This document shows, one piece after another, positions 3-37,690 of a stretch of 64,000 nucleotides of DNA. This DNA comes from a virus. Its lineage: Duplodnaviria > Heunggongvirae > Uroviricota > Caudoviricetes. Each line of letters opens with the position of its first letter. Positions within the stretch are counted from its first letter, which is position 1. Below the pieces are notes generated by a model. The model did no database searches. It saw nothing but the letters and a program-made list of their open reading frames with translations, and was not told where the DNA came from. Both the position numbers and the translations under genes were made by a program. The stretch covers positions 202,836 through 266,835 of the IMG/VR virus record IMGVR_UViG_3300001336_000001, one strand, 5' to 3'.

Positions 3-1349
3 TGTTGCGTTATAGTTTTTAAGTATTTCTTCATCAGTCAACGCTGTGTTATAAACTTGGCAGGAAAAAATATCTCCTATAAAAGGATTAGTATATCCGT
101 CTCCTATTATAATATCTGAAGAGCCATTTGCTGTAGAAACATACCCTCCAGCATTTTGAGTGCTAATTAGCTGTCCATTTTTATACCATTTACATGCATT
201 TGTAGACTGGTCTCTTGTCACTGATATAAACGCCAACTCATCTATGCCAACTGTAAATGTAGAACCTCTACCCACATATGGTGTACTATTACCTCCATTT
301 GTCCCAAAATAATAATTTATAGTTCCATTAGTTTCGTGTGTTAAAGTACCACTTCCTCCATAGGCTTGATTATAAGGGTTTCTTCTCAAACTATTTGCTC
401 CAGTTCCTGGTTTTAACCACATACAGATTGTCTGAGCGCTAGAAAAGTCCATGGAACTTGCATCAAATGGTATTCGAATAGAATCATTTGCACCATCAAA
501 TTTTAAACTACCTTTATTTTCTAATTCAAAAGTGGGGCCATTTATAAAATTTCCGTTATTTCCATTATTAGACAAATCGAAGGAAATGTCAGTTCTATTA
601 TTTAATAAATCATCAAGACTAGGTTCACTACCATCTACTATATCTAATCTGGGATATACAGAATGATGTATTACCATATCTGTCACAGTAGCATTAGGTT
701 GGTAAACAGCTAGAGTTCTACTTCTAGCTGTAGTTGTTTCAGCTCTCCATACATAATCAGCCCTTGAAATATTTGATATTTTACCGCTGTTTATCGTATA
801 TAATCCACTATCAACATGATTACTTCCAGTGCCACTACCTTCTGGCCATACATGACCTACTACTAAAACCCACTCATTAAGCGGTAGCTGTGAACTAGTT
901 GGTACAGCACTAGAAAACGTAAAATATGGATTTGTTTCATTATTTCCAGTATCTCTGTTCAAAACTCCATTAGTAGAACCATATCCATTTAACCCAGCAT
1001 AATATCTAGCAAAAGTTGCATCACCATTACTTACTCTACGTTCCCACCAGCTCATTCTGTACATTTTTGTATTATCAATAGATATTGGTGTCATATATAT
1101 ACCTCCACCTTTCGTAGAGCCTGCCACATTATAAGACTCCCATACAACGACCTGATTACCCCAAGGGTCATCTGAAATTAAACGCCTATTTCGGGTGCTA
1201 AAAGCCCCAAATGAGCCTATACCACCAGTTTGACCATTCTCCCATATAGTATAATTATATATTCGGTCTCTAAATTTAATAGATTTTGTATTAGCGGCAT
1301 CAAAATAAAATACTAGCCCATTTTTTATGTTATCTGGTCCTGTTATCAT
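3..1349 (-). CDS. LamG/concanavalin A-like virion protein with a large inserted domain (runs off the window edge; missing from the ORF track)
   Basis: Manual translation from ATG at 1349, which overlaps the upstream gene's TGA (ATGA): MITGPDNIKNGLVFYFDAANTKS...DLSNNGNNGNFINGPTF...LKFDGAND...VYNTALTDEEILKNYNATK. Both ends parallel the 1346..2041 protein. Confidence 0.85.
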   Translation of the reverse strand, partial: MITGPDNIKNGLVFYFDAANTKSIKFRDRIYNYTIWENGQTGGIGSFGAFSTRNRRLISDDPWGNQVVVWESYNVAGSTKGGGIYMTPISIDNTKMYRMSWWERRVSNGDATFARYYAGLNGYGSTNGVLNRDTGNNETNPYFTFSSAVPTSSQLPLNEWVLVVGHVWPEGSGTGSNHVDSGLYTINSGKISNISRADYVWRAETTTARSRTLAVYQPNATVTDMVIHHSVYPRLDIVDGSEPSLDDLLNNRTDISFDLSNNGNNGNFINGPTFELENKGSLKFDGANDSIRIPFDASSMDFSSAQTICMWLKPGTGANSLRRNPYNQAYGGSGTLTHETNGTINYYFGTNGGNSTPYVGRGSTFTVGIDELAFISVTRDQSTNACKWYKNGQLISTQNAGGYVSTANGSSDIIIGDGYTNPFIGDIFSCQVYNTALTDEEILKNYNAT

Positions 1350-2041
1350 AATCCAAATCTTGATTTTGTTGTGTTATAATTTTGTAGAACTTCTTCAGCA
1401 GTCAATGCTCTTTCATATATCATTGCATTAGACACTTTGCCATCTAAATACCTAGTACCACCTATTGTAACATTCCCTGTTCTAACACGTATTGGAGATG
1501 AAGCAAAAAGAGTTGTGCTAAATAATACACCATTAATATATAGTGTTAACCTACCACCATCGTATGTTCCTGTAAAATTTGTCCATAAACCATCATATGT
1601 AGCAGCAACAGCAGCGGACACTACTATTTGTCGTCTAACATTAGAATCATTTACGATTTCCAAAAAAATTCTACCTTCATATGTTATACTAATAAAATAA
1701 GAAGCATTTGACCCACCAAAACTAACACCCTTTGTTATTATATCTGAAAATACACCACGATTATAAAGTGGAATATTTACCCATGTCGATAATGTAATAC
1801 CAGCTGTTATATTTAAAGAGTCTGGATTTCCTAAAGTAACATAGTCATCTACACCATCAAACGAAATAACACCTTTTGATTCCGAATCTAAAGTAGGTCC
1901 ATTTGTAAGAACTCCATTATTATTATAGTCTGTTAAATCGAACCACACAGTTCCACTTCCTGGGTAGGATTTTGGATTTGCTGCATCTAAATATAGTGCT
2001 AAATCATCTGTAATTATTTTTGGCCCTCTATAAAATCCCAT
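1346..2041 (-). CDS. LamG/concanavalin A-like jelly-roll virion protein
   Basis: Motifs LYLDAANPKSYPGSGTVWFDL, FDGVDDYV, ITLSTWV, GTYDG..LYING, IYERALTAEEVLQNYN. Confidence 0.85.
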   Translation of the reverse strand: MGFYRGPKIITDDLALYLDAANPKSYPGSGTVWFDLTDYNNNGVLTNGPTLDSESKGVISFDGVDDYVTLGNPDSLNITAGITLSTWVNIPLYNRGVFSDIITKGVSFGGSNASYFISITYEGRIFLEIVNDSNVRRQIVVSAAVAATYDGLWTNFTGTYDGGRLTLYINGVLFSTTLFASSPIRVRTGNVTIGGTRYLDGKVSNAMIYERALTAEEVLQNYNTTKSRFGL

Positions 2042-2043: not shown

Positions 2044-5000
2044 TTAAATAATTCTAACGCCTGTTTTAATTGTCCAAGTACCTCCACCTGCGACAATATC
2101 TCCTAGTAACCTAACATCACCTGAAGAAATATCAACACTAAATGAAACATTAGATGTAGAACTGCCTAAATCCGCAGTAGAAGTATCTGTGAACTCAACA
2201 TTTGTACCATCCCAAACAGCTATAACAGTACCTGCTCGAAGTGTAGTTCCGCTCATTACATAATAATCAAAATAAGCAGCTTGACCTAACGTAGAATCAA
2301 AAGTGGTACACACATTTGTTCCAGCCACTAACCCAATATTAATTGACGTATTCATCAATAGTGAACCATCAATTTGAACTCTATCATCAGAATTAACTGT
2401 TAAAATAGGGATACCAGATATGTCATTAACTGAGAATATATCTCCTATTAAATTGTCATCAACTGAGAATAATTGACCTGATGAACCAACAACATTAAAC
2501 AAAGTAGCCCCTGATGTTGTACCACTAATTTCTACATCTCCGTGAACATCTAGCTTTGCATCTGGACTTGTTGTCCCAATACCAACATTAGTACCGTTAT
2601 TAAATATATTTGATGAGTTCAAGACCCAAGAAGAACCATTCCAAAATGGTGTATTACCTGCTACTAAACCTGGTGATAAAAAGCCTGAAGTTCCCGATGA
2701 ACCGCTCGTCCCATCAACACCCGATGTTCCAGAAGAACCGCTTGCTCCTGAAGAGCCAGAGGTTCCATCAACACCACTCGTTCCTGAAGAGCCACTTGTT
2801 CCTGAAGAGCCACTTGTTCCATCAACACCCGATGTTCCAGAAGAACCGCTTGCTCCTGAAGAGCCAGAGGTCCCAGAAGAACCACTCGTTCCAGACGTAC
2901 CATTAACACCAGATGTTCCACCTGAACCACCTGTTCCATTTGTACCATCAATACCTGAAGTGCCACCTGTTCCATTTGTACCATTTATACCCGAAGTTCC
3001 ATCAACTCCTGAAGTTCCACCACTACCTGATGTTCCTGATGTTCCACCACTACCAGAAGTTCCTGAAGAGCCTGATGTACCATTAATTCCCGATATTCCT
3101 GATGTACCATTAACACCTGAAGTTCCGTTTATACCACTCGTACCATTAACACCAGAGGTACCACCACTACCAGAAGTACCCGATGTACCATTTATGCCTG
3201 ATGTACCTGAAGTTCCGTTTATACCACTAGTTCCAGAACTACCACTAGTCCCAGAACTACCTGAGGTACCACCACTTCCTGATGTTCCACTAGTTCCACT
3301 TGTACCTCCACTTCCCGAAGTCCCTGAAGAACCTGAAGAGCCTCCTGAACCACTTGTACCTGATGTACCACCACTACCTGATGTACCTGAAGTTCCATTT
3401 ACGCCAGATGTACCTCCACTACCAGATGTACCCCCGCTTCCTGATGAACCACTAGTCCCACTTATACCATCAATACCTGATGTACCTGAAGAACCACCAC
3501 TACCCGAAGAACCTGAAGTTCCCGAAGTACCACCAATTCCATTTGTGCCATCTATTCCTGATGTCCCACCACTACCTGAAGTTCCTGAAGTACCTCCTGA
3601 ACCACTTGTTCCAGATGTTCCACCTGAACCACTAGTACCTGATGTACCAGATGTACCATCTATTCCAGACGTACCTCCGCTACCTGATGTGCCTGAAGTA
3701 CCATTTATACCTGATGTACCGCCAGAACCCCCTGTTCCAGAAGTTCCCCCACTTCCTGAAGTGCCTGATGTCCCATCTATACCTGAAGAACCACCACTGC
3801 CTGAAGTACCCGAAGTACCTGATGTACCACTACTACCCGAACTACCCCCTACACCACTAGTACCACCGCTACCTGAAGTCCCAGACGTACCACCTGTTCC
3901 GTTTGTTCCATCTATACCTGACGTACCACCGCTACCTGAAGTACCATTAACACCCGATGTCCCTCCACTACCTGAAGTACCACTATTTCCTGAAGTTCCT
4001 GAAGTACCGCCAGAACCAGAAGTTCCGTTAACACCAGATGTACCGTTGATTCCAGATGTTCCGCCAGAGCCGCTTGTTCCTCTAGTCCCAGAAGTACCAC
4101 CACTACCCGATGTTCCTGACGTACCATTAACACCAGATGTACCATTAACCCCCGAAGTACCATTAACTCCGCTTGTACCACCAGAGCCACTTGTTCCAGA
4201 TGTTCCAGAAGTTCCGTTAACTCCAGAAGTTCCATTTACACCACTACTACCAGATGTGCCTGATGTACCACCAGAGCCAGATGTTCCTGAAGTACCCCCA
4301 CTTCCTGACGTTCCATTAACACCAGATGTACCTCCAGAGCCAGAAGTACCTGAAGTCCCCCCACTTCCAGAAGTGCCTGATGTACCTCCTGAACCACTTG
4401 TTCCAGACGAACCTCCACTGCCAGAAGTCCCACTTGTACCATTTACCCCTGAAGTTCCACCACTTCCTGATGTACCACTTGAACCACTTGTTCCACTTGT
4501 ACCACCACTACCCGAAGTGCCAGATGAACCTGATGTTCCACTAGAACCTGATGTTCCACTAGAACCTGATGTTCCACCACTACCAGAAGTTCCATCTATT
4601 CCCGAAGTACCATCAACACCTGAAGTGCCCGAAGTTCCATTTACACCAGATGTGCCTCCACTTCCTGATGTTCCTGATGTACCATTAATTCCTGATGTAC
4701 CATTAATTCCTGATGTACCACCACTTCCCGAAGTTCCATCAATACCCGAAGTTCCACTAGTACCCCCGCTACCAGATGTTCCATTTATACCTGATGTACC
4801 ACCAGTTCCGTTTGCGCCATCTATTCCTGATGTACCTGAAGAACCACCACTACCCGAAGAACCTGATGTACCGCCTGTTCCGTTTGTTCCATCAACTCCA
4901 GAAGTTCCAGAAGAACCATCAACACCACTCGTTCCTGAAGAACCGCTTGTTCCTGAAGAACCAGAAGTTCCATCTATACCTGATGTTCCCGAAGAACCTG

Positions 5001-8000
5001 AAGAGCCGTCTGAACCACTTGTACCTGATGTACCACCAGTTCCATTTGTACCATCTATGCCTGATGTACCGCCTGTTCCGTTTGTTCCGTCAATACCTGA
5101 TGTACCGCCTGTTCCATTTGTTCCATCTATTCCTGAAGTACCATTTAACCCATTTGTTCCATCAATTCCTGAACTACCACTTGTACCTGAAGTTCCGTTA
5201 ACACCACTAGTCCCATCTATTCCTGATGTACCGCTACTTCCTGAAGTTCCATCAATACCCGAAGTCCCATCAATACCCGAAGAACCACTACTTCCTGATG
5301 TTCCTGATGTACCACTAGTTCCATTCGTACCGTCTATTGCTGATGTTCCTGATGTACCACTTGCACCACTACTACCAGACGAACCACCTGTTCCATTAGT
5401 TCCATTAACACCTGATGTACCACCACTTCCCGAAGTCCCCGATGTCCCATCAGTCCCGTTTGTTCCATCAATACCCGAACTACCACCAGTTCCGTTGGTA
5501 CCATCTATACCTGAAGTTCCTGAAGAACCCCCCGTTCCATTTGTTCCATCAATACCCGATGAACCACTAGTACCGTCTATACCACTTGTACCATCTATTC
5601 CTGAAGTTCCACTACTACCACCAGTACCATTTGTCCCATTAACACCTGATGTTCCTGAAGAACCACCCGTACCACTAGTTCCATTATTTCCTGAACTACC
5701 ACTTGTACCTGAAGTTCCTGATGTACCACTTGAACCACTTGTACCCGAAGTCCCGTTAACACCACTAGTTCCTGATGAACCTGATGTGCCACCAGTCCCG
5801 TTTGTCCCGTCTATTCCCGATGTACCTCCACTACCTGAAGTACCTGATGTTCCACCAGTACCACTTGTACCATCTATTCCTGATGTACCTGAAGAACCAC
5901 CACTACCCGAAGAACCTGATGTACCGCCTGTTCCGTTTGTTCCATTTATACCTGATGTTCCAGAAGTTCCTGAAGAACCATCAACTCCAGAAGTTCCTGA
6001 AGAACCATCTATACCTGATGTTCCCGAAGACCCACTTGTCCCCGAACTACCTGAAGTTCCATCAACACCACTCGTTCCTGAAGAGCCGCTTGTTCCAGAA
6101 GAACCGCTTGTTCCATCTATACCTGATGTTCCAGAAGAACCACTTGTGCCTGAAGTTCCTCCACTACCTGAAGTACCTGATGTCCCATCTATACCTGATG
6201 TACCACCACTGCCTGAAGTACCCGAACTACCCCCTAAACCACTAGTACCACCGCTACCTGAAGTCCCAGACGTACCACCTGTTCCGTTTGTTCCATTTAT
6301 ACCTGACGTACCACCGCTACCTGATGTGCCTGAAGTACCATTTATACCTGATGCACCATTTATACCTGAAGTACCACTTGTGCCTCCACTTCCAGATGTA
6401 CCATTAACTCCAGAGGTACCGCCTGAACCACTTGTACCTGAAGAACCACCACTACCTGAAGTTCCTGATGTACCATTAACACCACTTGTACCATTAACAC
6501 CACTTGTACCATTAACACCTGACGTACCTGAACTACCACCACTACCCGAAGTGCCAGATGAACCTGATGTTCCACTAGAACCTGAAGAGCCGCCTGAACC
6601 ACTTGTACCTGATGTTCCACCACTACCAGAAGTTCCATTTACACCTGATGTACCACCACTACCAGAAGTTCCATTTACACCTGATGTACCACCACTACCT
6701 GATGTTCCTGATGTACCACTACTACCTGATGTTCCCGAAGTTCCAGAAGAACCACTACTACCTCCAGTGCCACTTGTCCCATCTACACCACTAGTACCAC
6801 CGCTACCCGAAGTCCCAGAAGTCCCCCCAGAACCACTTGTTCCTCCACTACCTGATGTACCACTAGAACCTGAAGAACCTCCTGTACCACTTGTGCCATC
6901 AATACCTGATGTACCTGAAGAGCCAGAAGTTCCACCACTTCCAGATGTGCCAGAAGTACCACTACTACCACTTGTACCATTAACACCTGATGTTCCTGAA
7001 GAACCTCCAGTTCCATCTACACCTGATGTACCCCCTGAACCACTTGTTCCTGAAGTCCCTGAAGAACCACTTGTCCCTGATGAACCGCTAGAGCCAGATG
7101 TCCCACTAGAACCACCACTACCAGAAGCGCCTGATGTGCCTCCACTACCTGATGTACCACCTGAACCACTTGTACCTGATGAACCACTACTCCCTGAAGT
7201 TCCTGATGTACCACCACTACCCGAAGTTCCGCTAGTACCATTAACACCCGATGTACCACCCGAACCACTAGTCCCACTTGAGCCACCACTTCCTGAAGTC
7301 CCTCCAGAGCCAGATGTCCCACTAGAACCTCCTGAACCACTTGTGCCTGAAGTTCCTGATGAACCTGAAGAACCACCGCTACCTGAAGTACCATTAACAC
7401 CAGATGTTCCACCTGAACCGCTTGTTCCAGACGTACCATTAACACCAGATGTACCATTAATACCTGAAGTACCATTAACACCAGATGTTCCACCACTTCC
7501 TGATGTTCCATTAATTCCTGATGTACCACTTGTGCCTCCACTTCCAGATGTACCATTAACACCAGATGTACCATTAATACCTGAAGTACCATTAACACCA
7601 GATGTTCCTGATGTACCATTAACACCACTTGTACCATTAACACCTGACGTACCTGAACTACCACCACTACCCGAAGTGCCAGAAGAACCACTACTACCAC
7701 CAGTTCCATTTGTACCATCTATGCCTGATGTTCCACCACTACCACTTGTTCCATCAATACCAGATGTACCACCTGTTCCGTTTGTTCCTGAAGAACCCGA
7801 TGTTCCAGACGAACCAGATGTACCTCCTGTTCCGTTTGTTCCATCAACACCTGATGTACCTCCACTACCAGAAGTGCCTGATGAACCAGAAGAACCTGAT
7901 GTACCCGAAGTACCACCAGAGCCAGAAGTGCCTGATGTACCTCCACTTCCAGATGTACCTCCAGAACCACTTGTGCCTGAAGTTCCTCCACTACCTGAAG

Positions 8001-9156
8001 TACCACTAGAGCCACCGCTTCCTGAGGTGCCTGATGTTCCTGATGAACCTCCAGAACCAGATGTACCACTAGAACCTCCTGAACCAGAAGTTCCTGAAGT
8101 GCCAGCATCAGTTCTACTCTCAACTTGACCCGTAGTAGTGTTTACAACTAAAACTTGGTTAGATGTACTACCACTCGGTACATCCAATATATGTATAGTA
8201 TTTGTATTAGTATCACCAGTAACAATTAAGTCACCACTTACTGTATAATCACCATTTAAAATCTTTGTGTATTCCCATACACTATTAGTTGAATTAAATG
8301 ATATTAAGTCGCCATTTGTTTCGCCACTGGTTTGTAAATTATGTAAATCATTTAATTTTTTACCTAAATCAGGTCTTACGAATATTGAACCGTTAGCATC
8401 AGCTTTAATAACTAAAGCCATCTCTATTTTAAGATTTGGTTCGATAGGTTCAAATTTAGTTAAACCACCTGCTATTGTTGGTGAAACATATAAAATATCA
8501 CCATCAACCCAAGTTTCACCATATAATGAACCAGTAGTATCTATATTTCTAACTAAACCAAAATTAGTAACATAACCATCATCACCATTATCAATATCTT
8601 GTGTCACAATACCCATTGTAAAATAATAAGGTATTGTATCGTCAGCAATCATGTAGTCAGCTAATATCCTACCAGAATTACCCAAAGTACCAGCCGCTCT
8701 TATTACTTTACCGTTATCTAATTGAGAACCAGTTTGGTTTTTAACTAAAAAATATTGTTCTAATCCTATTTGTTGGGTAACTTCACCATTGTTACCCATA
8801 CCTATTTCTAAAGTACCATCATCAACAGACCAATTAAGTCTACCAATTACATGTTGTGAGTTACCAGAATAATTTGTGTTAAAATCTATATAATCAACAT
8901 CAGAAATTGTATTAACAGTCAACCCACTATTAATAGTCACAGCCCCGTCAACAGTACCACCAGATATTATAGATAATCTATCCCAACCTATTTGTCTAAC
9001 TTCTTGAGGAGCTGTATCACCCGATGTGTATATAGTGTACATCTTAGCGTCAGCTGTATTTAACGCAACCTCGCCTGTTGTTAACCCACTTAATGGTGGT
9101 ATTTTATTAGGTACATTCGACCTCTTTAAAAGGAACGTATTCTTTCTATTTGCCAT
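2044..9156 (-). CDS. Giant fibre-like virion protein: Mtd_N-like N-terminus, ~1800-aa Gly-X-Y (Ser/Thr-rich) repeat, C-terminal NVGIGT beta-repeat and globular domain
   Basis: 2370-aa ORF with non-repetitive termini (LKRSNVPNKIP..L..GEVALNTAD; NVGIGTTSPDAKLDVHG), an upstream late-promoter motif and fibre-gene context. Confidence 0.85.
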   Translation of the reverse strand: MANRKNTFLLKRSNVPNKIPPLSGLTTGEVALNTADAKMYTIYTSGDTAPQEVRQIGWDRLSIISGGTVDGAVTINSGLTVNTISDVDYIDFNTNYSGNSQHVIGRLNWSVDDGTLEIGMGNNGEVTQQIGLEQYFLVKNQTGSQLDNGKVIRAAGTLGNSGRILADYMIADDTIPYYFTMGIVTQDIDNGDDGYVTNFGLVRNIDTTGSLYGETWVDGDILYVSPTIAGGLTKFEPIEPNLKIEMALVIKADANGSIFVRPDLGKKLNDLHNLQTSGETNGDLISFNSTNSVWEYTKILNGDYTVSGDLIVTGDTNTNTIHILDVPSGSTSNQVLVVNTTTGQVESRTDAGTSGTSGSGGSSGTSGSGGSSGTSGTSGSGGSSGTSGSGGTSGTSGSGGTSGSGGTSGTSGSGGTSGTSGSSGSSGTSGSGGTSGVDGTNGTGGTSGSSGTSGSSGTNGTGGTSGIDGTSGSGGTSGIDGTNGTGGSSGSSGTSGSGGSSGTSGVNGTSGVNGTSGTSGVNGTSGINGTSGVNGTSGSGGTSGTSGINGTSGSGGTSGVNGTSGINGTSGVNGTSGTSGSGGTSGVNGTSGSGGSSGSSGTSGTSGSGGSSGTSGSGGTSGSGGSSGTSGSGGTSGVNGTSGTSGSGGTSGTSGSSGSSGTSGSGGTSGSGGTSGASGSGGSSGTSGSSGSSGTSGSSGTSGTSGSGGTSGVDGTGGSSGTSGVNGTSGSSGTSGTSGSGGTSGSSGTSGIDGTSGTGGSSGSSGTSGSGGTSGSGGTSGTSGSGGTSGVDGTSGTGGSSGSSGTSGTSGSSGTSGTSGSGGTSGVNGTSGSGGTSGVNGTSGSGGTSGTSGSGGSSGSSGTSGSSGTSGSGGSSGTSGVNGTSGVNGTSGVNGTSGTSGSGGSSGTSGSGGTSGVNGTSGSGGTSGTSGINGASGINGTSGTSGSGGTSGINGTNGTGGTSGTSGSGGTSGLGGSSGTSGSGGTSGIDGTSGTSGSGGTSGTSGSSGTSGIDGTSGSSGTSGSSGTSGVDGTSGSSGTSGSSGTSGIDGSSGTSGVDGSSGTSGTSGINGTNGTGGTSGSSGSGGSSGTSGIDGTSGTGGTSGTSGSGGTSGIDGTNGTGGTSGSSGTSGVNGTSGTSGSSGTSGTSGTSGSSGNNGTSGTGGSSGTSGVNGTNGTGGSSGTSGIDGTSGIDGTSGSSGIDGTNGTGGSSGTSGIDGTNGTGGSSGIDGTNGTDGTSGTSGSGGTSGVNGTNGTGGSSGSSGASGTSGTSAIDGTNGTSGTSGTSGSSGSSGIDGTSGIDGTSGSSGTSGIDGTSGVNGTSGTSGSSGIDGTNGLNGTSGIDGTNGTGGTSGIDGTNGTGGTSGIDGTNGTGGTSGTSGSDGSSGSSGTSGIDGTSGSSGTSGSSGTSGVDGSSGTSGVDGTNGTGGTSGSSGSGGSSGTSGIDGANGTGGTSGINGTSGSGGTSGTSGIDGTSGSGGTSGINGTSGINGTSGTSGSGGTSGVNGTSGTSGVDGTSGIDGTSGSGGTSGSSGTSGSSGTSGSSGTSGSGGTSGTSGSSGTSGSGGTSGVNGTSGTSGSGGSSGTSGSGGTSGTSGSGGTSGTSGSGGTSGVNGTSGSGGTSGTSGSGGTSGTSGSSGVNGTSGVNGTSGTSGTSGSGGTSGVNGTSGVNGTSGVNGTSGTSGSGGTSGTRGTSGSGGTSGINGTSGVNGTSGSGGTSGTSGNSGTSGSGGTSGVNGTSGSGGTSGIDGTNGTGGTSGTSGSGGTSGVGGSSGSSGTSGTSGTSGSGGSSGIDGTSGTSGSGGTSGTGGSGGTSGINGTSGTSGSGGTSGIDGTSGTSGTSGSGGTSGTSGSGGTSGTSGSGGTSGIDGTNGIGGTSGTSGSSGSGGSSGTSGIDGISGTSGSSGSGGTSGSGGTSGVNGTSGTSGSGGTSGTSGSGGSSGSSGTSGSGGTSGTSGTSGSGGTSGSSGTSGSSGTSGINGTSGTSGINGTSGTSGSGGTSGVNGTSGINGTSGVNGTSGISGINGTSGSSGTSGSGGTSGTSGSGGTSGVDGTSGINGTNGTGGTSGIDGTNGTGGSGGTSGVNGTSGTSGSSGTSGSSGASGSSGTSGVDGTSGSSGTSGSSGTSGVDGTSGSSGASGSSGTSGVDGTSGSSGTSGFLSPGLVAGNTPFWNGSSWVLNSSNIFNNGTNVGIGTTSPDAKLDVHGDVEISGTTSGATLFNVVGSSGQLFSVDDNLIGDIFSVNDISGIPILTVNSDDRVQIDGSLLMNTSINIGLVAGTNVCTTFDSTLGQAAYFDYYVMSGTTLRAGTVIAVWDGTNVEFTDTSTADLGSSTSNVSFSVDISSGDVRLLGDIVAGGGTWTIKTGVRII
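2683..8103 (-). repeat. Gly-X-Y coding repeat (GTS/GSS/GSG/GVN/GID/GTN), residues 352-2158
   Basis: First and last Gly are 1806 residues apart (602 triplets), consistent with an unbroken register. One Gly-to-Ala exception seen (GTSAIDGTN). No Pro. Confidence 0.95.
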
Positions 9157-9382: not shown

Positions 9383-11356
9383 TCAATAAATACCTCCATC
9401 TAAAATATCTCCCTCAGCCAAAACCCTTACACCATCAGGGTCACCGAAGTTAACTGGACTACTATTTCTAATAACAATGTCATTTAACTGAGTAACCCAA
9501 CCTCTATTTTCAAATCCAGTAGTTGATGTGTATTCAGATGTGTCACCACTAATACTTGAACCTTGTAACTGACCAATACCAATTTTAACATCTTGACCAG
9601 AAACACCACCACCATCTTGAATTAAAATACCAGAACCAATAGATGTACTACTTGTATCACCAGTTGGGTTATAGTTTAATTCTATTTGAGGGTCTTCAAT
9701 GTATAATTCAGAGGTTGATATTGTTGTAGTATCACCAAATACTGTTAAATCACCATGCACGACCAAATCACCAATACCTGATGCGGATGTTGAACCACCT
9801 GAACCAATAACTAAACCACCCTGACCAATATTAGCAGTTGTTCCAGAAGGGTTATTAACAAATATGTTACCAACAGTTAATAAGTCAGTTACATCATTAT
9901 ATTCAAATCCAGCTTCATCTGTTAATTCACCATTTGTACCTACATAAACAACTCTACCTGGTGTTAAGTTATCAAAGGTTAATCCAGAAACTGAAGTTAT
10001 TGAAGTATTAAACGATGAACCATCATTGTTAAATATTGTAAAGGTATTTGTTGTGTCATCATATGTAAAACCAGTTACAGAAACATCAGTCAACCCAGTT
10101 ATCACTACTGGGGTTTCATTAGCTCTATCTAATGTTAAGGTACCATTATTATCCACATATGATACCGTACCACCACTAACGAATATATCATTATTAGCCG
10201 TATAACCAGTAACGAACGCAACATTAGCAATCTCATCACCATCAGTACCACTAACTGTTTCAGTGTATAATGACAAACAATTTAAGTTTGTATCACCAGT
10301 TACAGTTAAAGGTCCGTTAATTGTTAAACCACTAACTTCGTTAATTGATACCGTTAAATCTGGTTGACCTTCATTCCTAGAGATTATTAAGGTATTATTT
10401 GATGGGTTATATGTAAACCCTGTTGTGAATGTATCATTAACATCTAAAGCACTTAAATCTAACGTGTAAGCTGAAAGTGATTCATTAGTATCAAAATATG
10501 CTGTACTACCCACTAAAGTTGCTCCAGTTGTTTTAACATCAGTAAAACCTGTTATAACAACATCGTTACCATCGTTATCAGTTAGTGTTAATGTACCATT
10601 AAGATTATTAGAATCATAACCTAAAGTACCACCAGTAATAAAAGTATCATTTACATCAATACTAGATAAATTAACAGTAAATTGTGGAAAATTATTAGCC
10701 CCACTAAATGATATTAATGCTGTGTTGTTATCATAAGTACCACCAGTAACGTATTTATCAGTAGTTGACGTATGGGCAGTTAATGATGACCAGTTTACCA
10801 ACTCATCATTATTTGAACCATTAGCAACACCATTATACGTAGCAGTACCAGTTATTATTAAATCATTAACAATCTGCTCCCCCTCAACAAATAAATCACC
10901 ACTAACTGTTAAAGCACTAAATGCGTCAATTGTAACATTTACTGATGGTTTACCTAAATTTAAATCTAAAGTTAGTTGATTTGGTGTCCAAGTAACACCT
11001 GTAACATATGAGTCAGTTGATTGTGCAATATCTGCTATATCAGCAAGAACAAAACCATTAGTTGTACCAGATAAAAATTTACCAACTAAATCTGCACCAG
11101 ATTCTCCCTCATATTGTGTTATTCTATTTCTTAATCTTAAATCGAATAGATTAGAACCAACTTCAAAATATGTTGATTCAGTAGCACCAGTACCTGCTGG
11201 TGTCCATCCAGATGTTGATGTTGTATTACCTGAGTAATAAAGTATACCATCAGCGGTATTAACGATTGCCTCACCCGATAGCAAACCATTACTCGGTAAT
11301 GGTCTATTTACAATATTACTATTTTTAGTAATTAATGTTGTACTTCTAATTGCCAT
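9383..11356 (-). CDS. Fibre/appendage protein with Mtd_N-like N-terminus, D-x-(F/Y)-x-TG-x-T repeats and C-terminal LDGGIY
   Basis: N-terminus similar to the 2370-aa protein (L..GEA.VNTADG); GDLTVFGDTTTI...IEDPQIELN shaft motif. Confidence 0.75.
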   Translation of the reverse strand: MAIRSTTLITKNSNIVNRPLPSNGLLSGEAIVNTADGILYYSGNTTSTSGWTPAGTGATESTYFEVGSNLFDLRLRNRITQYEGESGADLVGKFLSGTTNGFVLADIADIAQSTDSYVTGVTWTPNQLTLDLNLGKPSVNVTIDAFSALTVSGDLFVEGEQIVNDLIITGTATYNGVANGSNNDELVNWSSLTAHTSTTDKYVTGGTYDNNTALISFSGANNFPQFTVNLSSIDVNDTFITGGTLGYDSNNLNGTLTLTDNDGNDVVITGFTDVKTTGATLVGSTAYFDTNESLSAYTLDLSALDVNDTFTTGFTYNPSNNTLIISRNEGQPDLTVSINEVSGLTINGPLTVTGDTNLNCLSLYTETVSGTDGDEIANVAFVTGYTANNDIFVSGGTVSYVDNNGTLTLDRANETPVVITGLTDVSVTGFTYDDTTNTFTIFNNDGSSFNTSITSVSGLTFDNLTPGRVVYVGTNGELTDEAGFEYNDVTDLLTVGNIFVNNPSGTTANIGQGGLVIGSGGSTSASGIGDLVVHGDLTVFGDTTTISTSELYIEDPQIELNYNPTGDTSSTSIGSGILIQDGGGVSGQDVKIGIGQLQGSSISGDTSEYTSTTGFENRGWVTQLNDIVIRNSSPVNFGDPDGVRVLAEGDILDGGIY

Positions 11357-11399: not shown

Positions 11400-11789
11400 T
11401 TAAAAAATACCACCGTTAAGAATATCATTTTGTATAACAGAACTATCAGCGGTTATATTTCGTTGATTACCATCACTATCTACCCCTAAATTTAAATTTG
11501 GTGTGTTAACAACTTCAGTTGAAGTCCACACACTTGAGGTACCACTAATCGTGTTGACATCCCTAAATCTCCTAATATTAGTACCAAGAGTTAAAACACC
11601 ATCTTCATTAGGTATAATATCCATATATGGAGTTATAGTGTCACCACTAAACGTGAACACTTTATTACCATTACAACTAAATATTAGGTCAGTAGTATAG
11701 GCACTACAAGGTAACACAGGTATTACTGGTTTAGCACCTATTATAAATGTTTTGTTTAAACTGATATTTCCACTTCCACAATCAACCAT
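11400..11789 (-). CDS. Small virion protein, possible fibre adaptor (ends ILNGGIF)
   Basis: IIPNEDGVLTLGT..RRF fibre-type motif; C-terminus resembles LDGGIY of the next gene. Confidence 0.6.
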   Translation of the reverse strand: MVDCGSGNISLNKTFIIGAKPVIPVLPCSAYTTDLIFSCNGNKVFTFSGDTITPYMDIIPNEDGVLTLGTNIRRFRDVNTISGTSSVWTSTEVVNTPNLNLGVDSDGNQRNITADSSVIQNDILNGGIF

Positions 11790-13516: not shown

Positions 13517-15361
13517 TTGATAAATTTAGAAGAAATAGGTGGGTATTCATCAACATCAAAATTAAAAGAGTATAATGGTAAAAACCCATACATTTTGAAG
13601 TTGAAGAAAAAATTGTTAAGTGATGGTAAAATTTCACTTACTGATAACCAAATTAAGTATATTAGAGATAATTTTGATAATGAACCAGTTTTAGTTAATA
13701 AAATTGTTAGGATAGCCGAATACTTAGGTGAATCATTAGAAAAACAGTACGAACTACCATTTAGACCAGAAAAAATACTAATAGAATACGTGTTAGCTGA
13801 AGACGATAAGACTTATCACGTTTATGGTAAATTAACTAGAAAGCAAGCAAAATCTAAAATGTATTTTATACCCAAAAATCAAGTTCTAGATGACCCATAT
13901 TTTGAAGAAATAGATATCGATGTTGACTTTGAAAAATATGAAAAGATAGACCAATTTGTAAATACCGATGGGACCATTGGTCGAAAAGTATTAGAAAAAC
14001 AAAAAGAGGGTATTAAGTTCTTATTAACTAGAAAAGGTGCTATTTTAGCAGACCAGATGGGGTCGGGAAAAACCATGCAATCAACAATTGCTGCAATTGA
14101 AAGTGGTGCTAAAAAAATATTAATAGTCTGCCCAACATCTGCTAAAATAAATTGGCAAAGAGAATTGAATTATTTACAAGAATTTGATGTTAGTATTATT
14201 AGTGGTAGTAAATATAAAACAGCTAAATTTGTTATAATTAATTATGATATACTTAAAAATTTTCATACTTTAAAGGGTGAAGAAAAAGACGGAATACCAC
14301 CAAATAGACAATTAGTTAATGATAAGTTTGATTTATGTATAATTGATGAAGCACATAACCTTAAAAATCATAAAAGTATTAGAGGTGCTATAATGCGTGA
14401 ATTATGTGTTGATTATCACATAGAAAGGGTTTGGTTACTAAGTGGTACACCTGTAGCAAATAGACCTATGGATTTTTATAATTTATTAACATTAATAAAA
14501 TCACCAATAGTTAAAAATTGGAAACATTATGTTACAAGGTATTGTGATGGTAAACAAATTAGCACCAAAACTAAAAACGGTAAATTTAGAAAAATATGGT
14601 TAACTGATGGTGCCTCAAATCTCGAAGAACTATCTATTAAAACTAGAAATGTTTTATTAAGAAGATTAACACATGAGTTTTCCGATATGCCAGAAAAAAC
14701 AGTCACACCATTATATTATAATATGGACAAGTCTCAAGAAGCTGAATATAATTCGCTTTGGGATGAATATTTGGTAGAAAGAAAAAAACAAAAGAAAAAA
14801 GGTAAAATAGAAAGGGAATTAGTTGAATTATCATTACTTAGAAAGTACATAGCAATGGAAACTATACCAAAAACAATAGAATTAGTTGATGATATGATTT
14901 CACAAGGTAATAAAGTTGTTATTTTTACTTGTTTTACTGAAGAATTATTAACACTATCAGAATATTACGGTAAAAATTGTGTTGTTCATTATGGTGAAAT
15001 GAATAATAAAGATAAACAAGCATCAGTTGACCGATTTCAAAAAGAGGGTGGCCCAATGGTATTTATTGGTAATATAATATCAGCTGGTGTTGCCATAACC
15101 TTAACAAGGTCAAATTATATGGTCTTTAATTCATTTGACTGGGTTCCTGGTAATATTGAACAAGCTGAATTTAGGATTTACAGAATCGGACAAAAAAACA
15201 ATGTTAAAATATATTACAATTTGTTTAATGACACAATTATAACTAGAATGTGGGGAACAATAAAATATAAACAAGAAATAATAAATACAATACTCAATGA
15301 TTATACTAATAACGAATATTCATTAATTGAGGATATAATAGATTATACTTTAGAAAATTAA
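13517..15361 (+). CDS. SNF2-family (SF2) helicase/translocase
   Basis: ILADQMGSGKT (Walker A), IIDEAH, LLSGTP..NRP, QAEFRIYRIGQ; TTG start. Confidence 0.93.
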   Translation: MINLEEIGGYSSTSKLKEYNGKNPYILKLKKKLLSDGKISLTDNQIKYIRDNFDNEPVLVNKIVRIAEYLGESLEKQYELPFRPEKILIEYVLAEDDKTYHVYGKLTRKQAKSKMYFIPKNQVLDDPYFEEIDIDVDFEKYEKIDQFVNTDGTIGRKVLEKQKEGIKFLLTRKGAILADQMGSGKTMQSTIAAIESGAKKILIVCPTSAKINWQRELNYLQEFDVSIISGSKYKTAKFVIINYDILKNFHTLKGEEKDGIPPNRQLVNDKFDLCIIDEAHNLKNHKSIRGAIMRELCVDYHIERVWLLSGTPVANRPMDFYNLLTLIKSPIVKNWKHYVTRYCDGKQISTKTKNGKFRKIWLTDGASNLEELSIKTRNVLLRRLTHEFSDMPEKTVTPLYYNMDKSQEAEYNSLWDEYLVERKKQKKKGKIERELVELSLLRKYIAMETIPKTIELVDDMISQGNKVVIFTCFTEELLTLSEYYGKNCVVHYGEMNNKDKQASVDRFQKEGGPMVFIGNIISAGVAITLTRSNYMVFNSFDWVPGNIEQAEFRIYRIGQKNNVKIYYNLFNDTIITRMWGTIKYKQEIINTILNDYTNNEYSLIEDIIDYTLEN

Positions 15362-15365
15362 AAAA

Positions 15366-15623
15366 ATGGTTAGATTATATGGGTTTGAAAAATGCCCTTA
15401 CTGTAAAGAGTTAAGAGGATTACTAGAAAGTAATAATGTTAAATACGACTATGTAGATGTAACATTATCAGACAATGAAAAAGAATCAAATAGAATATTT
15501 GAGATAGCTGGTGAAGAAACAGTTCCGATTGTATTAGTTGATAAAACAGTTTTAGTACCAGATAAATCATTTAAAACAATACAAGAGGCATACGAACTAA
15601 CTAAAAAATTTTTAAACGATTAG
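15366..15623 (+). CDS. Glutaredoxin/NrdH-like redoxin
   Basis: CPYC active site and TVP cis-Pro motif. Confidence 0.9.
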   Translation: MVRLYGFEKCPYCKELRGLLESNNVKYDYVDVTLSDNEKESNRIFEIAGEETVPIVLVDKTVLVPDKSFKTIQEAYELTKKFLND

Positions 15624-15663
15624 TTAAAGATGTAAAACGGGTTAGAAAATGTAAATTTAACTA

Positions 15664-17112
15664 TTAGTTTGGTAGTTCATAATAGTAAGTTTTATGACCA
15701 CAATCATATATTCTATATAACTTATCATCTAAACATATCTGATGAGCTGTTTTATTTACATCATAACCACGCTCAACTAATTTATGTTTTTGATATTTAA
15801 GTCTATGGTATCTACGGTTTTTTTCCAATATAAACCAATTTGGTTTTGAATTATGTTTAAATTTAAAACCCAAGTTGTGGTATACCCCACCATTCGACCA
15901 TCTTCTATCAGCATAACTTATTATCTCCTTTGGTTTATAATTTTTAATAAAATATTTTAATAATTTAGAAGCGCCACCAACCACAGATGTATCTAACTTA
16001 TTACAAAACCTAATCAATTCGTATTCATAATTATTTAAAAAAGGCCTACCACCAAAACACATCAAACTAACTAACTCATCATTGTAATATAACCCAATAT
16101 TAGTTTTTGTTTTTGTTACCCCTTGGATATGGTTATTTTCTAAAAATAATTTAGATGTTTTAAAATCAATTTCTTTAATTTCACATTTTCTTGCGTAAAT
16201 CTTATTCTCTGTTAAACCTAAAATGTTTTTAATCCTTGATTTAACAATATCTTGTTTATATAACCATTCATCCTCAAAAATATGTATCAATTGAACCCCC
16301 TTTTCTTCACACATTTCAGTTTTATTTAAATGGTAATTATCATCAACAAACAACTCAGAATACCAATATAAACCATTGTATTCAATAGCTAAATTATGTG
16401 ATGGTATGTATATATCTAACTCCTTACCATCTAACAAACTTCTATCATTCTCAATAAAAGTAATACCTAATGAAGATATAAAATCACGTAGGTCTAGTTG
16501 ACCTTTAGATATTTTAGTATTACATTTAACACAATTACCACCATGCAAATGACTTTCAACTAATTGTTCAAATTCACCATGCTCTGGACATATAATAGTT
16601 ACATAAGATTTATATGAATTATATTTAACTTTTGAATAATCATATTTATCACCATGTATCTCTTTAAACTTACATATTACCTCTTCAGTAGTCAACCTGT
16701 TATCCTTACCTCGTTTTTCTAAATAACATTTTTTACACCCCTCACCCTTTAGATGTACATCAGCTCTTTGGTTAAATTCCCCATGTATTGGGCATATTAT
16801 AGTTATATAATCTTTTAATGTTTTATATTCAACTTTTGAATAATCATATTTATCACCATGTGTTTTTTTAACTCTATCAAGGTAAACGTCACTTTCTAAT
16901 CTTATACTATTATATTTATTCACCTTAGAACACTCTGGACAACCCTGACCGTTTATGTGGTCTCTAGCTATCTTATCGAACTCACCATGTTTTGGGCATA
17001 TGATTTTAACCTTTTTACCCACACCATCATAATTGACTAACGAATAATCATATTTAAAATTGTGGATTTCGTTACATTCTTCAATAAACTCCTTATTAGT
17101 TTTTTTCTTCAT
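15664..17112 (-). CDS. Hef-like homing endonuclease: CPxHGEF zinc repeats, PD-(D/E)xK/Vsr-like domain, C-terminal GNAT-like region
   Basis: Three ICPxHGEF...H..G..C..C repeats; ELDIYIP..NLAIEYNGLYW; YARKC...NHIQG...ELIRFC...GGASKLL...SYADRRWS...IYDCG. Likely start is ATG 17112. Confidence 0.8.
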   Translation of the reverse strand: MKKKTNKEFIEECNEIHNFKYDYSLVNYDGVGKKVKIICPKHGEFDKIARDHINGQGCPECSKVNKYNSIRLESDVYLDRVKKTHGDKYDYSKVEYKTLKDYITIICPIHGEFNQRADVHLKGEGCKKCYLEKRGKDNRLTTEEVICKFKEIHGDKYDYSKVKYNSYKSYVTIICPEHGEFEQLVESHLHGGNCVKCNTKISKGQLDLRDFISSLGITFIENDRSLLDGKELDIYIPSHNLAIEYNGLYWYSELFVDDNYHLNKTEMCEEKGVQLIHIFEDEWLYKQDIVKSRIKNILGLTENKIYARKCEIKEIDFKTSKLFLENNHIQGVTKTKTNIGLYYNDELVSLMCFGGRPFLNNYEYELIRFCNKLDTSVVGGASKLLKYFIKNYKPKEIISYADRRWSNGGVYHNLGFKFKHNSKPNWFILEKNRRYHRLKYQKHKLVERGYDVNKTAHQICLDDKLYRIYDCGHKTYYYELPN

Positions 17113-17251
17113 TTTTAATATATTCTTCAATAAACCTCCTTATCAATTTAGATGGTGTCACACAACTAATATCACATTTATCTAAAAATTTAGTTTTAAT
17201 CTCCTCATCAACCCTAATGTGTAAATATTTATCTTTTTTTTGTGTTCTCAT
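17096..17251 (-). CDS. Ribbon-helix-helix DNA-binding protein, 51 aa (missing from the ORF track)
   Basis: MRTQKKDKYLHIRVDEEIKTKFLDKCDISCVTPSKLIRRFIEEYIKNEEKN: beta-strand LHIRV plus two helices; overlaps the endonuclease start. Confidence 0.75.
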   Translation of the reverse strand: MRTQKKDKYLHIRVDEEIKTKFLDKCDISCVTPSKLIRRFIEEYIKNEEKN

Positions 17252-32117: not shown

Positions 32118-32127
32118 ATAACAAAAT

Positions 32128-35517: not shown

Positions 35518-35523
35518 AAATTA

Positions 35524-35994: not shown

Positions 35995-36004
35995 TGAATA
36001 GGAT

Positions 36005-37680: not shown

Positions 37681-37690
37681 GTTTTATATT
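37662..37690 (+). promoter_or_regulatory. Putative middle-class promoter TTTACA-N17-TATATT
   Basis: Upstream of the 37708 operon. Confidence 0.5.

What the first reader, a model, noticed from the sequence alone, without database searches (positions are those of the whole stretch)
2683..8103. ~600 consecutive proline-free Gly-X-Y triplets in one fibre protein
Seen: Gly recurs every third residue across 1807 aa, with X/Y almost only T, S, G, V/I, N/D and no Pro, between an Mtd_N-like anchor and a globular tip. Many N-G-T tripeptides (N-x-T) occur. Established: collagen rise is about 0.29 nm per residue, which would give a filament of roughly 0.5 micrometre. Pro-free Gly-X-Y can also fold as polyproline-II bundles (snow-flea antifreeze protein, T-even gp38), and glycosylated Thr stabilises vent-worm cuticle collagen. 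Inference: a very long tether or mucin-like brush whose stability may depend on glycosylation.
Basis: partly seen in the sequence, partly recalled or inferred. Interest (0 to 1): 0.75.

Follow-up and report, generated by a model that had tools for sequence, protein, structure and literature searches.

The report
Giant proline-free collagen-like phage fibre
A 288-kb uncultured freshwater phage encodes a 2370-residue tail-fibre protein whose shaft is 603 unbroken, proline-free and salt-bridge-free Gly-Thr/Ser-Ser triplets (about 0.5 micrometre if triple-helical), close to a phage copy of the bacterial adhesin-glycosylating enzyme TibC, so it is probably a very long sugar-coated collagen-like fibre for catching host cells.

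Summary
Window 2044-9156 (- strand) is one 2370-aa gene. Residues 352-2160 form 603 in-register Gly-X-Y triplets with a single Gly-to-Ala break at the midpoint. There is no Pro, Lys or Glu. X is T/S/I/V and Y is S/G/N/D.

The DNA is degenerate: about 64% self-identity and a longest exact repeat of 76 bp. Pieces recur exactly in an independent contig set, and relatives carry in-frame 9-bp and 135-bp indels. Inflation by the assembler is therefore unlikely, although no read spans the tract.

The N-terminal part matches annotated phage tail fibres. The last 106 residues model as the trimeric C-terminal domain of T4 gp9 (Z 12.4). The gene lies in a tail and fibre module.

A TibC/Aah-family protein O-glycosyltransferase lies 7 kb away (TIGR04414, 292 bits against a cut-off of 200). 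All six phage records of at least 20 kb carrying this enzyme also encode proline-free Ser/Thr collagen-like fibres, against 1 of 16 related records without it.

Best reading: a homotrimeric collagen-like fibre, probably O-glycosylated. The Mtd_N label and the polyproline-bundle idea are not supported. Proline-free collagen-like fibres are common in metagenomes, so only length and continuity stand out. Other agents of this scan reported the same fibre-plus-TibC pairing in other phages, some with longer fibres.

The parts
2044..9156 (-). Whole fibre gene, 2370 aa, about 205 kDa, calculated pI 4.05
8947..9156 (-). N-terminal module, aa 1-70 (MANRKNTFLLKRSNVP...GEVALNTAD...QIGWDR). It is conserved at the N-terminus of other giant fibre proteins and of the neighbouring 657-aa protein. 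Presumed virion-attachment end.
   Evidence: The same N-terminus occurs in P0005, P0047, P0051, P0052 and P0007. There is 45% identity over 40 aa to the start of ORF 9383-11356. There is no Pfam Mtd_N hit.
8104..8946 (-). N-terminal globular region, aa 71-351. It contains a domain (about aa 72-300) shared with annotated phage tail-fibre and tail proteins and with 81 long mosaic fibre proteins.
   Evidence: tblastn gives 30-40% identity to tail-fibre genes of Nitrincola, Pseudomonas, Acinetobacter and Roseobacter phages. See also PHROG 19966. The AlphaFold model was too poor to use (pLDDT 48).
2677..8103 (-). Collagen-like tract of 603 Gly-X-Y triplets (aa 352-2160). It is free of Pro, Lys and Glu.
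5338..5340 (-). The only register break: Ala (GCA) in place of Gly at triplet 308 of 603, close to the midpoint. It may act as a hinge.
   Evidence: The stretch 5167-5717 is matched exactly by a contig of run X1. A related strain in run X2 lacks 5316-5450, which is 135 bp or 15 triplets.
2359..2676 (-). Post-collagen region, aa 2161-2266 (FLSPGLVAGNTPFWNGSSW...NVGIGTTSPDAKLDVHG...). This motif is repeated up to 50 times in other giant fibre proteins and is probably a trimeric beta-structured neck.
   Evidence: A paralogous copy lies in the 467-aa fibre. Low pLDDT as a monomer.
2047..2358 (-). C-terminal beta-sandwich domain, aa 2267-2370, of the fold of the C-terminal domain of T4 gp9 and of Acinetobacter/Klebsiella phage tailspikes
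   Evidence: AlphaFold pLDDT above 90 for these residues. VIA-align gives Z 12.4, rmsd 2.1 A over 104 residues to 1qex_A residues 171-281, and Z 9.8-10.8 to 9f4a, 6e1r and 7xy1. Foldseek E is 1e-4 to 7e-4.
1346..2041 (-). Laminin_G_3 (concanavalin-like lectin fold) protein of 231 aa, directly downstream. Candidate distal adhesin or partner.
   Evidence: Pfam E = 2.8e-21. The order fibre-with-this-tip then two LamG genes recurs in locus L002.
3..1349 (-). Second Laminin_G_3 protein (449+ aa; it runs off the window start). A third one of 237 aa and a 467-aa paralogous fibre with 17 Gly-X-Y triplets follow outside the window.
9383..11356 (-). Upstream 657-aa protein with the same N-terminal 40-aa motif. 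Probably a second fibre using the same attachment site.
   Evidence: No Pfam family.

Best explanation
The gene encodes a homotrimeric tail-associated fibre of a 288-kb freshwater myovirus-type jumbo phage. The conserved N-terminal module fixes it to the tail or baseplate. The C-terminal gp9-like beta-sandwich and the beta-structured neck trimerise the three chains and set their register. From there the 603 Gly-X-Y triplets would zip into one continuous collagen-type triple helix about 0.5 micrometre long, with a single Gly-to-Ala soft spot at mid-length. The tract has no proline and cannot form a Lys-Glu or Lys-Asp salt bridge. It uses residues that rank low for triple-helix stability. The helix is therefore most likely stabilised by dense O-glycosylation of its 870 Ser/Thr per chain in the host cytoplasm. 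The candidate enzymes are the phage's own TibC/Aah-family glycosyltransferase and the adjacent GT1-methyltransferase and methyltransferase. The sugar is unknown. The likely function is a long, hydrated, protease-resistant line that enlarges the capture radius of the virion in dilute lake water, with the C-terminal domain and the three downstream lectin-fold (LamG) proteins making first contact with the host surface. Shown here: the sequence anatomy, the homologies, the fold of the tip, the enzyme's family membership and the co-occurrence. Inferred: trimer, triple helix, glycosylation, virion location and function.
For: Gly register, composition and strict X/Y asymmetry: all 325 Thr are in X, all Asp and extra Gly and 74 of 76 Asn are in Y. 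This argues for an ordered periodic conformation rather than a disordered linker. Protein-level selection: 278 GTS triplets are written in 44 DNA versions using both Ser codon families, self-identity is about 64%, and all self-alignment offsets are multiples of 9. Pfam Collagen scores E = 3.7e-133. Tail-fibre homology of the N-terminal part is shown. The C-terminal domain has the fold of the trimeric T4 gp9 C-terminal domain, Z 12.4. Gene context: tail sheath, tube and T4-type baseplate genes, a paralogous short fibre and three LamG genes. TibC homologue: PDB 4rap E = 3.9e-61 over aa 58-388. Asp110, Thr226, Lys230, Trp305 and all four iron-finger Cys are kept. It scores 292 bits against the 200-bit cut-off of TIGR04414. 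Co-occurrence: this genome and the five other viral records of at least 20 kb with this enzyme (six in all: G000, G001, G002, G003, G006, G016) all encode Pro-free Ser/Thr-rich Gly-X-Y fibres, against 1 of 16 sheath-related records without it. Fisher p = 9e-5, or 1e-3 when lineages are counted once. From the literature: (Gly-Pro-Thr)10 becomes triple-helical only when Thr is galactosylated, and KGE/KGD salt bridges are proposed as the general collagen folding aid (PMC11923368). This tract has neither Pro nor Lys or Glu.
Against: No experiment or structure shows a triple helix for Gly-Thr-Ser-type sequences, and the PDB holds no comparable chain. Gly occupies Y in 107 triplets. One published criterion counts these as interruptions, which leaves 109 segments of mean 4.5 triplets. 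TibC and Aah are described as acting on beta-helical autotransporter passengers, not collagen, so the real acceptor could be the beta-structured parts or another protein. TibC's sugar-binding Arg286 is Val here and Pro300 is Gly. The phage encodes no ADP-heptose pathway enzyme that I could find, so the donor sugar is open. The co-occurrence sample is small, partly related and made of fragments. No read or contig spans the whole tract. Virion presence is not shown.
Confidence: 0.5

Rival explanations
1. It is a glycosylated but non-helical tether. The chains are held together only at the two ends, and the Gly-X-Y part is a flexible, mucin-like, extended polyproline-II-biased brush rather than a packed triple helix.
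For: There are no imino acids and no charge pairs. Gly fills 18% of Y positions, and the residues used rank low for helix propensity. Ser/Thr make up 48% of the tract, as in mucins. A TibC-like glycosyltransferase lies nearby.
Against: A disordered linker does not need Gly at exactly every third residue for 1809 residues. It also does not need Thr/Val/Ile confined to X and Asn/Asp/Gly confined to Y while the DNA drifts to 64% self-identity. Indels seen in relatives are whole triplets (9 and 135 bp).
Confidence: 0.2
2. It is an unmodified collagen-like triple helix, stable enough because of its length, its trimerising ends and cold water. The TibC-like enzyme then serves another substrate, such as beta-structured fibre parts or other virion proteins.
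For: Many metagenomic Pro-free G/S/T/N/D collagen-like fibre proteins were found without any information on a linked enzyme. BAHT enzymes are described on beta-helices. Polar residues can build hydration networks in bacterial collagens (PMC8968730).
Against: The orthologous TibC-like gene and Pro-free Ser/Thr collagen-like fibres co-occur in every sufficiently long record tested. Unglycosylated (Gly-Pro-Thr)10 is reported as random coil, and this tract lacks even the Pro.
Confidence: 0.15
3. The gene is real but its length or continuity is an assembly product, that is, a chimeric path through repeats of several strains or paralogues.
For: The record comes from short-read metagenomics. An independent k = 31 contig set of the likely source run breaks the tract into 266-740-bp pieces and none spans it. 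Related strains coexist in other samples. k-mer joins inside the tract would keep the reading frame.
Against: No off-diagonal self-alignment exceeds about 66% identity and the longest exact repeat is 76 bp. There is therefore no double traversal and no tandem inclusion of two strain versions. The contig's 87-bp end overlap fits assembly at k = 87, where the tract has a unique path; this link is my inference. 94% of sampled 31-mers are present in one run and all listed pieces match with 0 differences. Close relatives from other samples carry 1674- and 2889-aa collagen-like fibre ORFs at the same locus.
Confidence: 0.07
4. It is a polyproline-II helix bundle, like snow-flea antifreeze protein or the gp38 adhesin glycine-rich sandwich, folded back on itself instead of forming an extended rod.
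For: Gly-rich triplets without Pro and frequent Gly-Gly pairs (GSGG, GTGG).
Against: Neither the hydrophobic X residues nor the Gly-in-Y triplets show any periodicity that could mark regular turns. Autocorrelations are all below 0.1 beyond lag 1. Gly is 39%, and T/S/V/I side chains fill nearly all X positions. Flanking trimeric fibre modules fit a rod.
Confidence: 0.03

Closest known systems
Bacteriophage collagen-like tail-fibre proteins (Smith et al. 1998 'Bacteriophage collagen'; EPclA-D of E. coli O157 prophages, PMC3368898; Gly-X-Y ORFs of cyanophage P-SSM2, PMC1079782)
   Same: Gly-X-Y shaft between non-collagen end domains in a tail-fibre gene, with presumed trimer formation.
   Different: The known examples are tens to about 100-200 triplets long and contain Pro and charged residues. 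EPclA's stability is attributed to Pro in X and about 22% charged residues. This tract has 603 triplets, no Pro and no possible salt bridge.
Bacillus BclA exosporium glycoprotein and Riftia cuticle collagen (Thr-glycosylated collagens)
   Same: A collagen-like helix lacking hydroxyproline in which glycosylated Thr is held to stabilise the helix. BclA also has a C-terminal trimeric beta-sandwich domain (from my own knowledge).
   Different: In those proteins Thr sits in Y behind Pro (Gly-Pro-Thr). Here Thr sits in X and Ser in Y, with no Pro. Glycosylation is not shown here, and the candidate enzyme belongs to another family.
TibC-TibA and Aah-AIDA-I (bacterial autotransporter heptosyltransferases, TIGR04414, PDB 4RAP/4RB4, PMC4358343)
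   Same: The neighbouring phage enzyme passes the family's curated cut-off. It keeps the catalytic Asp, three of four sugar-binding residues and the four iron-finger cysteines. Both systems act in the cytoplasm, and both would hyper-glycosylate Ser/Thr of a long repetitive surface fibre.
   Different: The presumed acceptor is a collagen-like repeat of a virus, not a beta-helical autotransporter. Arg286 and Pro300 are replaced, and the donor sugar is unknown.
Metagenomic Pro-free G/S/T/N/D collagen-like fibre proteins (74 clusters) and the syntenic fibres of related phage records G006 and G016
   Same: The same triplet vocabulary (GTS, GSS, GSG, GVN, GID, GTN). Many carry the Peptidase_S74 tail-fibre chaperone domain. 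The 474- and 531-aa fibres of G016 and G006 end in the same C-terminal domain (53% identity).
   Different: Those proteins have 44-351 triplets in several runs, the longest uninterrupted run being 108. Here there are 307 + 295 triplets with one Gly-to-Ala break. The same-tip fibre of the relatives has 69-75 triplets.
Mycobacteriophage virion glycosylation (Freeman et al. 2023, cited in PMC12619734)
   Same: Phage-encoded glycosyltransferases that decorate the phage's own structural proteins.
   Different: There the glycans sit on C-terminal tails of capsid and tail-tube subunits and other enzyme families are used. No collagen-like acceptor is involved.

Membership tests
Collagen triple-helix repeat (Pfam PF01391) | Gly at every third residue over many consecutive triplets | tested here: met
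   602 of 603 positions are Gly. PF01391 scores E = 3.7e-133, 433.8 bits against a cut-off of 27.2.
Collagen triple-helix repeat (Pfam PF01391) | Known stabilising features: imino acids in X/Y, or Lys-Glu / Lys-Asp pairs | tested here: not met
   0 Pro, 0 Lys, 0 Glu and 1 Arg in 1809 residues. These features are typical rather than strictly defining.
Collagen triple-helix repeat (Pfam PF01391) | Three chains actually wound into a triple helix | not testable with these tools
   Only single chains can be modelled here. It needs CD, melting, EM or a multimer prediction.
Collagen triple-helix repeat (Pfam PF01391) | Adjacent trimerisation domain able to set the register | tested here: met
   The C-terminal 106 aa have the fold of the trimeric T4 gp9 C-terminal domain, Z 12.4, rmsd 2.1 A. 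Trimer formation itself is inferred.
Phage tail fibre | Homology to annotated tail-fibre proteins and location in a tail gene module | tested here: met
   Sheath, tube and T4 baseplate genes lie within about 15 kb.
Phage tail fibre | Presence in the virion | not testable with these tools
   No isolate and no proteome.
Mtd_N (Pfam PF18454) | Match to the family profile | tested here: inconclusive
   No hit for aa 1-90 or for the whole protein at E up to 10. There is only a motif-level resemblance ([KR]R[SG]...GE.A.N..D) to the Mtd_N-bearing proteins P0069 and P0070.
BAHT / TIGR04414 (neighbouring enzyme, genome 198215-199390) | Score above the curated equivalog cut-off and full-length alignment to TibC | tested here: met
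   292.1 bits against 200. PDB 4rap E = 3.9e-61, aa 58-388 against 51-386.
BAHT / TIGR04414 (neighbouring enzyme, genome 198215-199390) | Catalytic Asp110, sugar-binding Thr226, Lys230, Arg286 and Trp305, and iron-finger Cys339/342/358/370 | tested here: inconclusive
   Asp, Thr, Lys, Trp and all four Cys are conserved. Arg286 is Val, and the stereoselectivity residue Pro300 is Gly.
BAHT / TIGR04414 (neighbouring enzyme, genome 198215-199390) | Heptosylation of a protein acceptor | not testable with these tools
   No ADP-heptose pathway genes were found in the phage. Activity and acceptor are unknown.
Polyproline-II bundle proteins (snow-flea antifreeze, gp38-type glycine-rich sandwich) | Short PPII segments separated by regularly spaced turns | tested here: not met
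   The spacing of V/I or of Gly-in-Y triplets shows no periodicity.

The most novel reading that the evidence does not exclude
A class of collagen triple helix built only from Gly, Ser, Thr, Asn, Asp, Val and Ile, with no proline and no salt bridges. Its folding and stability would depend entirely on cytoplasmic hyper-O-glycosylation by a virus-encoded TibC-family enzyme. This would give phages half-micrometre sugar-coated capture lines and would be a third, glycan-based solution to collagen stability beside hydroxyproline and charge pairs.
Probability: 0.35. Interest if true: 0.85.

Novelty: new variant of a known kind. Interest (0 to 1): 0.66.

Why it matters
Collagen stability is currently explained by imino acids, hydroxyproline and Lys-Glu/Asp clamps. 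A natural 1809-residue tract with none of these is a clean test case, and its probable modifying enzyme is encoded beside it. The question is whether glycosylated Ser/Thr alone can hold a triple helix. It can be tested in E. coli, which makes ADP-heptose.

For phage biology, the fibre would be longer than most virions. Such a fibre bears on how large phages find hosts in dilute water, and on virion glycosylation, which is so far documented mainly in mycobacteriophages. A proline-free, hydroxylation-free recombinant collagen would also interest biomaterials work.

Tried and rejected
1. Megablast of 20 kb of the window against GenBank phages found no match.

2. Pfam and PDB sequence searches of the N-terminal 351 aa and the C-terminal 212 aa found nothing usable.

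3. The AlphaFold model of the N-terminal 351 aa had pLDDT 48 and was not searched.

4. A PDB sequence search with 301 aa of the tract matched animal collagens and a (GAPGSQ/GAPGLQ)-type fibril through Gly only. It gives no structural precedent for Gly-Thr-Ser. A paper search for that fibril entry found nothing relevant.

5. Contigs of runs X2, X3 and X5 laid on the tract at 90% likeness gave hundreds of short cross-matching pieces and joints from other organisms' repeats. I did not use these to infer structure or habitat. I used only the junction contig, the 9-bp insertion and the 135-bp deletion.

6. My search for equally long Pro-free tracts found at most 236 triplets among proteins of 1303-4148 aa, and nothing among longer ones. 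That search scores only the 8000 candidates sharing most words. Other agents of this scan report 3196- and 3343-residue fibres of this kind, so I do not claim this one is the longest.

7. The antisense 1722-aa ORF (2960-8128, +) was rejected as a by-product of the repeat. It has no flanking domains, and the minus-strand frame carries homologous end domains.

8. The N-x-T sequon idea (71 NGT) was left open. I did not search for an N-glycosyltransferase (GT41/HMW1C type).
Full report
**The object.**
The window is part of a 287,855-bp viral record with 30.5% G+C. An 87-bp overlap of its ends marks it as complete or terminally redundant. ORF 2044..9156 on the minus strand encodes 2370 residues. 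A scripted check finds Gly at every third residue from aa 352 to 2158. There are 307 triplets, one Ala-Ile-Asp triplet (aa 1273, codon GCA, window 5338-5340), then 295 more triplets. This is 603 triplet positions at window 2677-8103.

The tract contains only G, S, T, N, I, V and D, plus 7 Ala, 3 Leu, 1 Arg and 1 Phe. It has no Pro, Lys, Glu, Gln or aromatic residue apart from that Phe. Position X is T325/S170/I51/V46. Position Y is S375/G107/N74/D45. Pfam Collagen scores E = 3.7e-133.

**Is the tract real?**
At the DNA level the tract is far from a perfect repeat.
- Tandem Repeats Finder sees only periods that are multiples of 9, with 60-90% matches.
- The longest exact internal repeat is 76 bp.
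- The best off-diagonal self-alignments are about 64% identical, and all offsets are multiples of 9.
- The 278 GTS triplets are spelled in 44 ways, using both Ser codon families.

An assembler that went round a loop twice, or stitched two strain versions in tandem, would leave long near-identical copies. There are none. The end overlap of 87 bp suggests assembly at k = 87, which is my inference. At that k the whole genome holds a single repeated 87-mer, and it lies outside the gene.

One public run (X1, an aquatic metagenome, probably the source) holds 94% of the sampled 31-mers. Its independently built contigs enter the tract from both flanks, and all eight listed pieces match with zero differences. 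They break inside the tract, so none spans it.

Related strains in lake-water runs of other studies share the junction between the N-domain and the tract. They differ by a 9-bp insertion at 7930 and by a 135-bp deletion (5316-5450) that removes the Ala site. Both are whole-triplet changes. Two related records from other samples carry 1674- and 2889-aa collagen-like ORFs at the same locus. I put the chance that the length is an artefact at about 7%.

**The ends and the neighbourhood.**
- Residues about 72-300 are 30-40% identical to annotated tail-fibre or tail proteins of several cultured phages. They also recur in 81 long mosaic fibre proteins, most of which have other kinds of shaft.
- The first 60-70 residues are a conserved N-terminal module in several of these proteins. 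They also match the start of the upstream 657-aa protein at 45% over 40 aa. This fits a shared attachment site.
- The module does not match Pfam Mtd_N at any threshold tried.
- The C-terminal 212 residues have more than 16,000 relatives.
- With a 20-sequence alignment, AlphaFold models the last 106 residues at pLDDT above 90. This model superposes on the C-terminal domain of T4 gp9 (Z 12.4, rmsd 2.1 A, 104 residues). It also superposes on the C-terminal domains of Klebsiella and Acinetobacter phage fibres and tailspikes (Z 9.8-10.8). All of these are trimers.
- The 106 residues between the tract and this domain carry a motif (NVGIGTTSPxxKLxVxG) that is repeated up to 50 times in other giant fibres.
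- Downstream lie three Laminin_G_3 lectin-fold proteins and a 467-aa paralogue with 17 triplets and the same neck.
- Beyond these lie a methyltransferase, a TibC-like glycosyltransferase, a GT1-methyltransferase fusion, and then tail sheath, tube and T4-type baseplate genes.

**How unusual is it?**
Proline-free G/S/T/N/D collagen-like tracts are a common building block of metagenomic fibre proteins. I found 74 clusters of 1303-4148 aa, all with PF01391 and many with the Peptidase_S74 tail-fibre chaperone domain. They have 44-236 triplets, and the longest unbroken run is 108.

In the close relatives G016 and G006, the fibre that ends in the same tip domain (53% identity) has only 69-75 triplets. 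A second giant fibre there has 312 or 105 triplets in many short runs. The kind is therefore known from sequence. What stands out here is 307 + 295 uninterrupted triplets.

My length comparison is limited by the search's candidate cap. Notes of other agents in this scan describe 3196- and 3343-residue fibres of the same type in other phages. I therefore do not claim a record.

**Why the chemistry is odd.**
A recent survey proposes Lys-Glu and Lys-Asp clamps as the shared folding aid of collagens in all domains of life and in viruses. It treats Gly in X or Y as an interruption. It also recalls that (Gly-Pro-Thr)10 is a random coil unless Thr is galactosylated (PMC11923368). A review gives 19% Pro in X and 32% Thr in Y for bacterial collagens (PMC8968730).

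This tract has no Pro and no possible salt bridge. It places Thr in X rather than Y, and has Gly in Y in 107 triplets. By the strict criterion this leaves 109 segments of mean 4.5 triplets. From my memory of host-guest peptide data (Persikov et al. 2000, not checked here), Thr and Ser in X and Ser, Gly, Asn and Asp in Y all rank in the lower part of the stability scale.

The strict X/Y partition, kept while the DNA has drifted, still argues for an ordered three-residue conformation rather than a disordered linker. The spacing of V/I or Gly-in-Y shows no periodicity. That argues against a bundle of short polyproline-II helices joined by turns.

**The glycosylation lead.**
The 392-aa protein at genome 198215-199390 lies about 7 kb from the giant gene and 2 kb from the short paralogue.
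- It aligns with TibC over nearly its full length (PDB 4rap, E = 3.9e-61).
- It passes the curated equivalog cut-off of TIGR04414, 292 against 200 bits.
- Checked against the residues named in the TibC structure paper (PMC4358343), it keeps the catalytic Asp110, Thr226, Lys230, Trp305 and all four iron-finger cysteines.
- It has Val for Arg286 and Gly for Pro300, so the sugar may differ.
- The phage has no SIS-type isomerase or cytidylyltransferase-like gene for ADP-heptose synthesis.
- The phage does carry at least four more glycosyltransferase genes at window 33.7-41.8 kb.

Nine IMG/VR loci encode relatives of the enzyme. Every record of at least 20 kb among them also encodes a Pro-free Ser/Thr-rich Gly-X-Y fibre.
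- G002 has 171 triplets 4 kb away.
- G001 has at least 88 triplets 17 kb away, plus others.
- G003 has a 1934-aa open frame with 351 triplets.

Among 18 records related through the tail sheath, the orthologous enzyme occurs only in G006 and G016. Both have the collagen-like fibres beside it. Only 1 of the other 16 has any collagen hit. Fisher's test gives p = 9e-5, or 1e-3 with the related records counted once. The sample is small and fragmentary.

Other agents of this scan reached the same pairing independently on other phage genomes. I list those notes as agreement, not as evidence.

**Verdict.**
The finding is real. It is best read as a very long homotrimeric collagen-like tail fibre that is probably O-glycosylated by a phage TibC-family enzyme (confidence about 0.5 for the whole chain of inference). 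The main rivals are:
- a glycosylated but non-helical brush (0.2);
- an unmodified helix with the enzyme serving another target (0.15);
- an assembly-inflated length (0.07);
- a polyproline-II bundle (0.03).

It is a new variant of a known kind (phage collagen-like fibres). It is interesting chiefly because it lacks every accepted means of collagen stabilisation and has a candidate modifying enzyme encoded nearby.

Noticed in passing
window 33762-41795 (+): A cluster of further glycosyltransferase genes: Glyco_tranf_2_5 (33762-34889), GT2 (34819-35517), a double enzyme with a DXD sugar-binding region plus GT2 (36005-37654), and a weak GT1 (40668-41795). A truncated-looking UDP-glucose/GDP-mannose dehydrogenase lies at 30100-30903. 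They could extend a protein-linked glycan or modify DNA.
   Followed up: partly
window 2960-8128 (+): A 1722-aa open frame runs antisense to the collagen-like tract. It is a by-product of the repeat composition and not a gene.
   Followed up: yes
window 5316-5450 and 7930: Related strains in other public runs carry a 135-bp in-frame deletion (15 triplets, removing the only Gly-to-Ala site) and a 9-bp insertion. This is natural length polymorphism in whole triplets.
   Followed up: partly
L109 (G016:19000-38000) and L110 (G006:19000-36000): Close relatives shuffle the fibre modules. A 474- or 531-aa fibre joins the N-terminus of this phage's separate 129-aa protein (window 11400-11789) to 69-75 triplets and the same tip. 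A 2889- or 1674-aa fibre starts like this phage's 467-aa fibre.
   Followed up: partly
G006, G016, G013, G018: Relatives carry a second, shorter TibC-like paralogue (353-aa open frame, 35-42% identity) that this genome lacks. The records with only this paralogue (G013, G018) showed no collagen hit.
   Followed up: no
L009:4652-6643 (+): A 664-aa protein with 171 unbroken triplets begins with Gly-Tyr-Thr / Gly-Ala-Thr triplets and ends with Pro-rich ones. It lies 4 kb from a TibC-like gene in an unrelated viral contig.
   Followed up: partly
window 13517-17130: An SNF2-family helicase (13517-15361, +) lies beside a 488-aa HNH/homing-endonuclease-like gene (15664-17130, -).
   Followed up: no
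genome positions 1-87 and 287041-287127 (outside the window): Besides the 87-bp terminal overlap, the first 87 bases recur once more about 0.8 kb from the record's end. The orientation was not checked.
   Followed up: no
window 31539-33195 and 38770-39630: Nucleotide-metabolism and auxiliary genes: dUTPase, an IMP dehydrogenase/GMP reductase-like protein, and PhoH.
   Followed up: no
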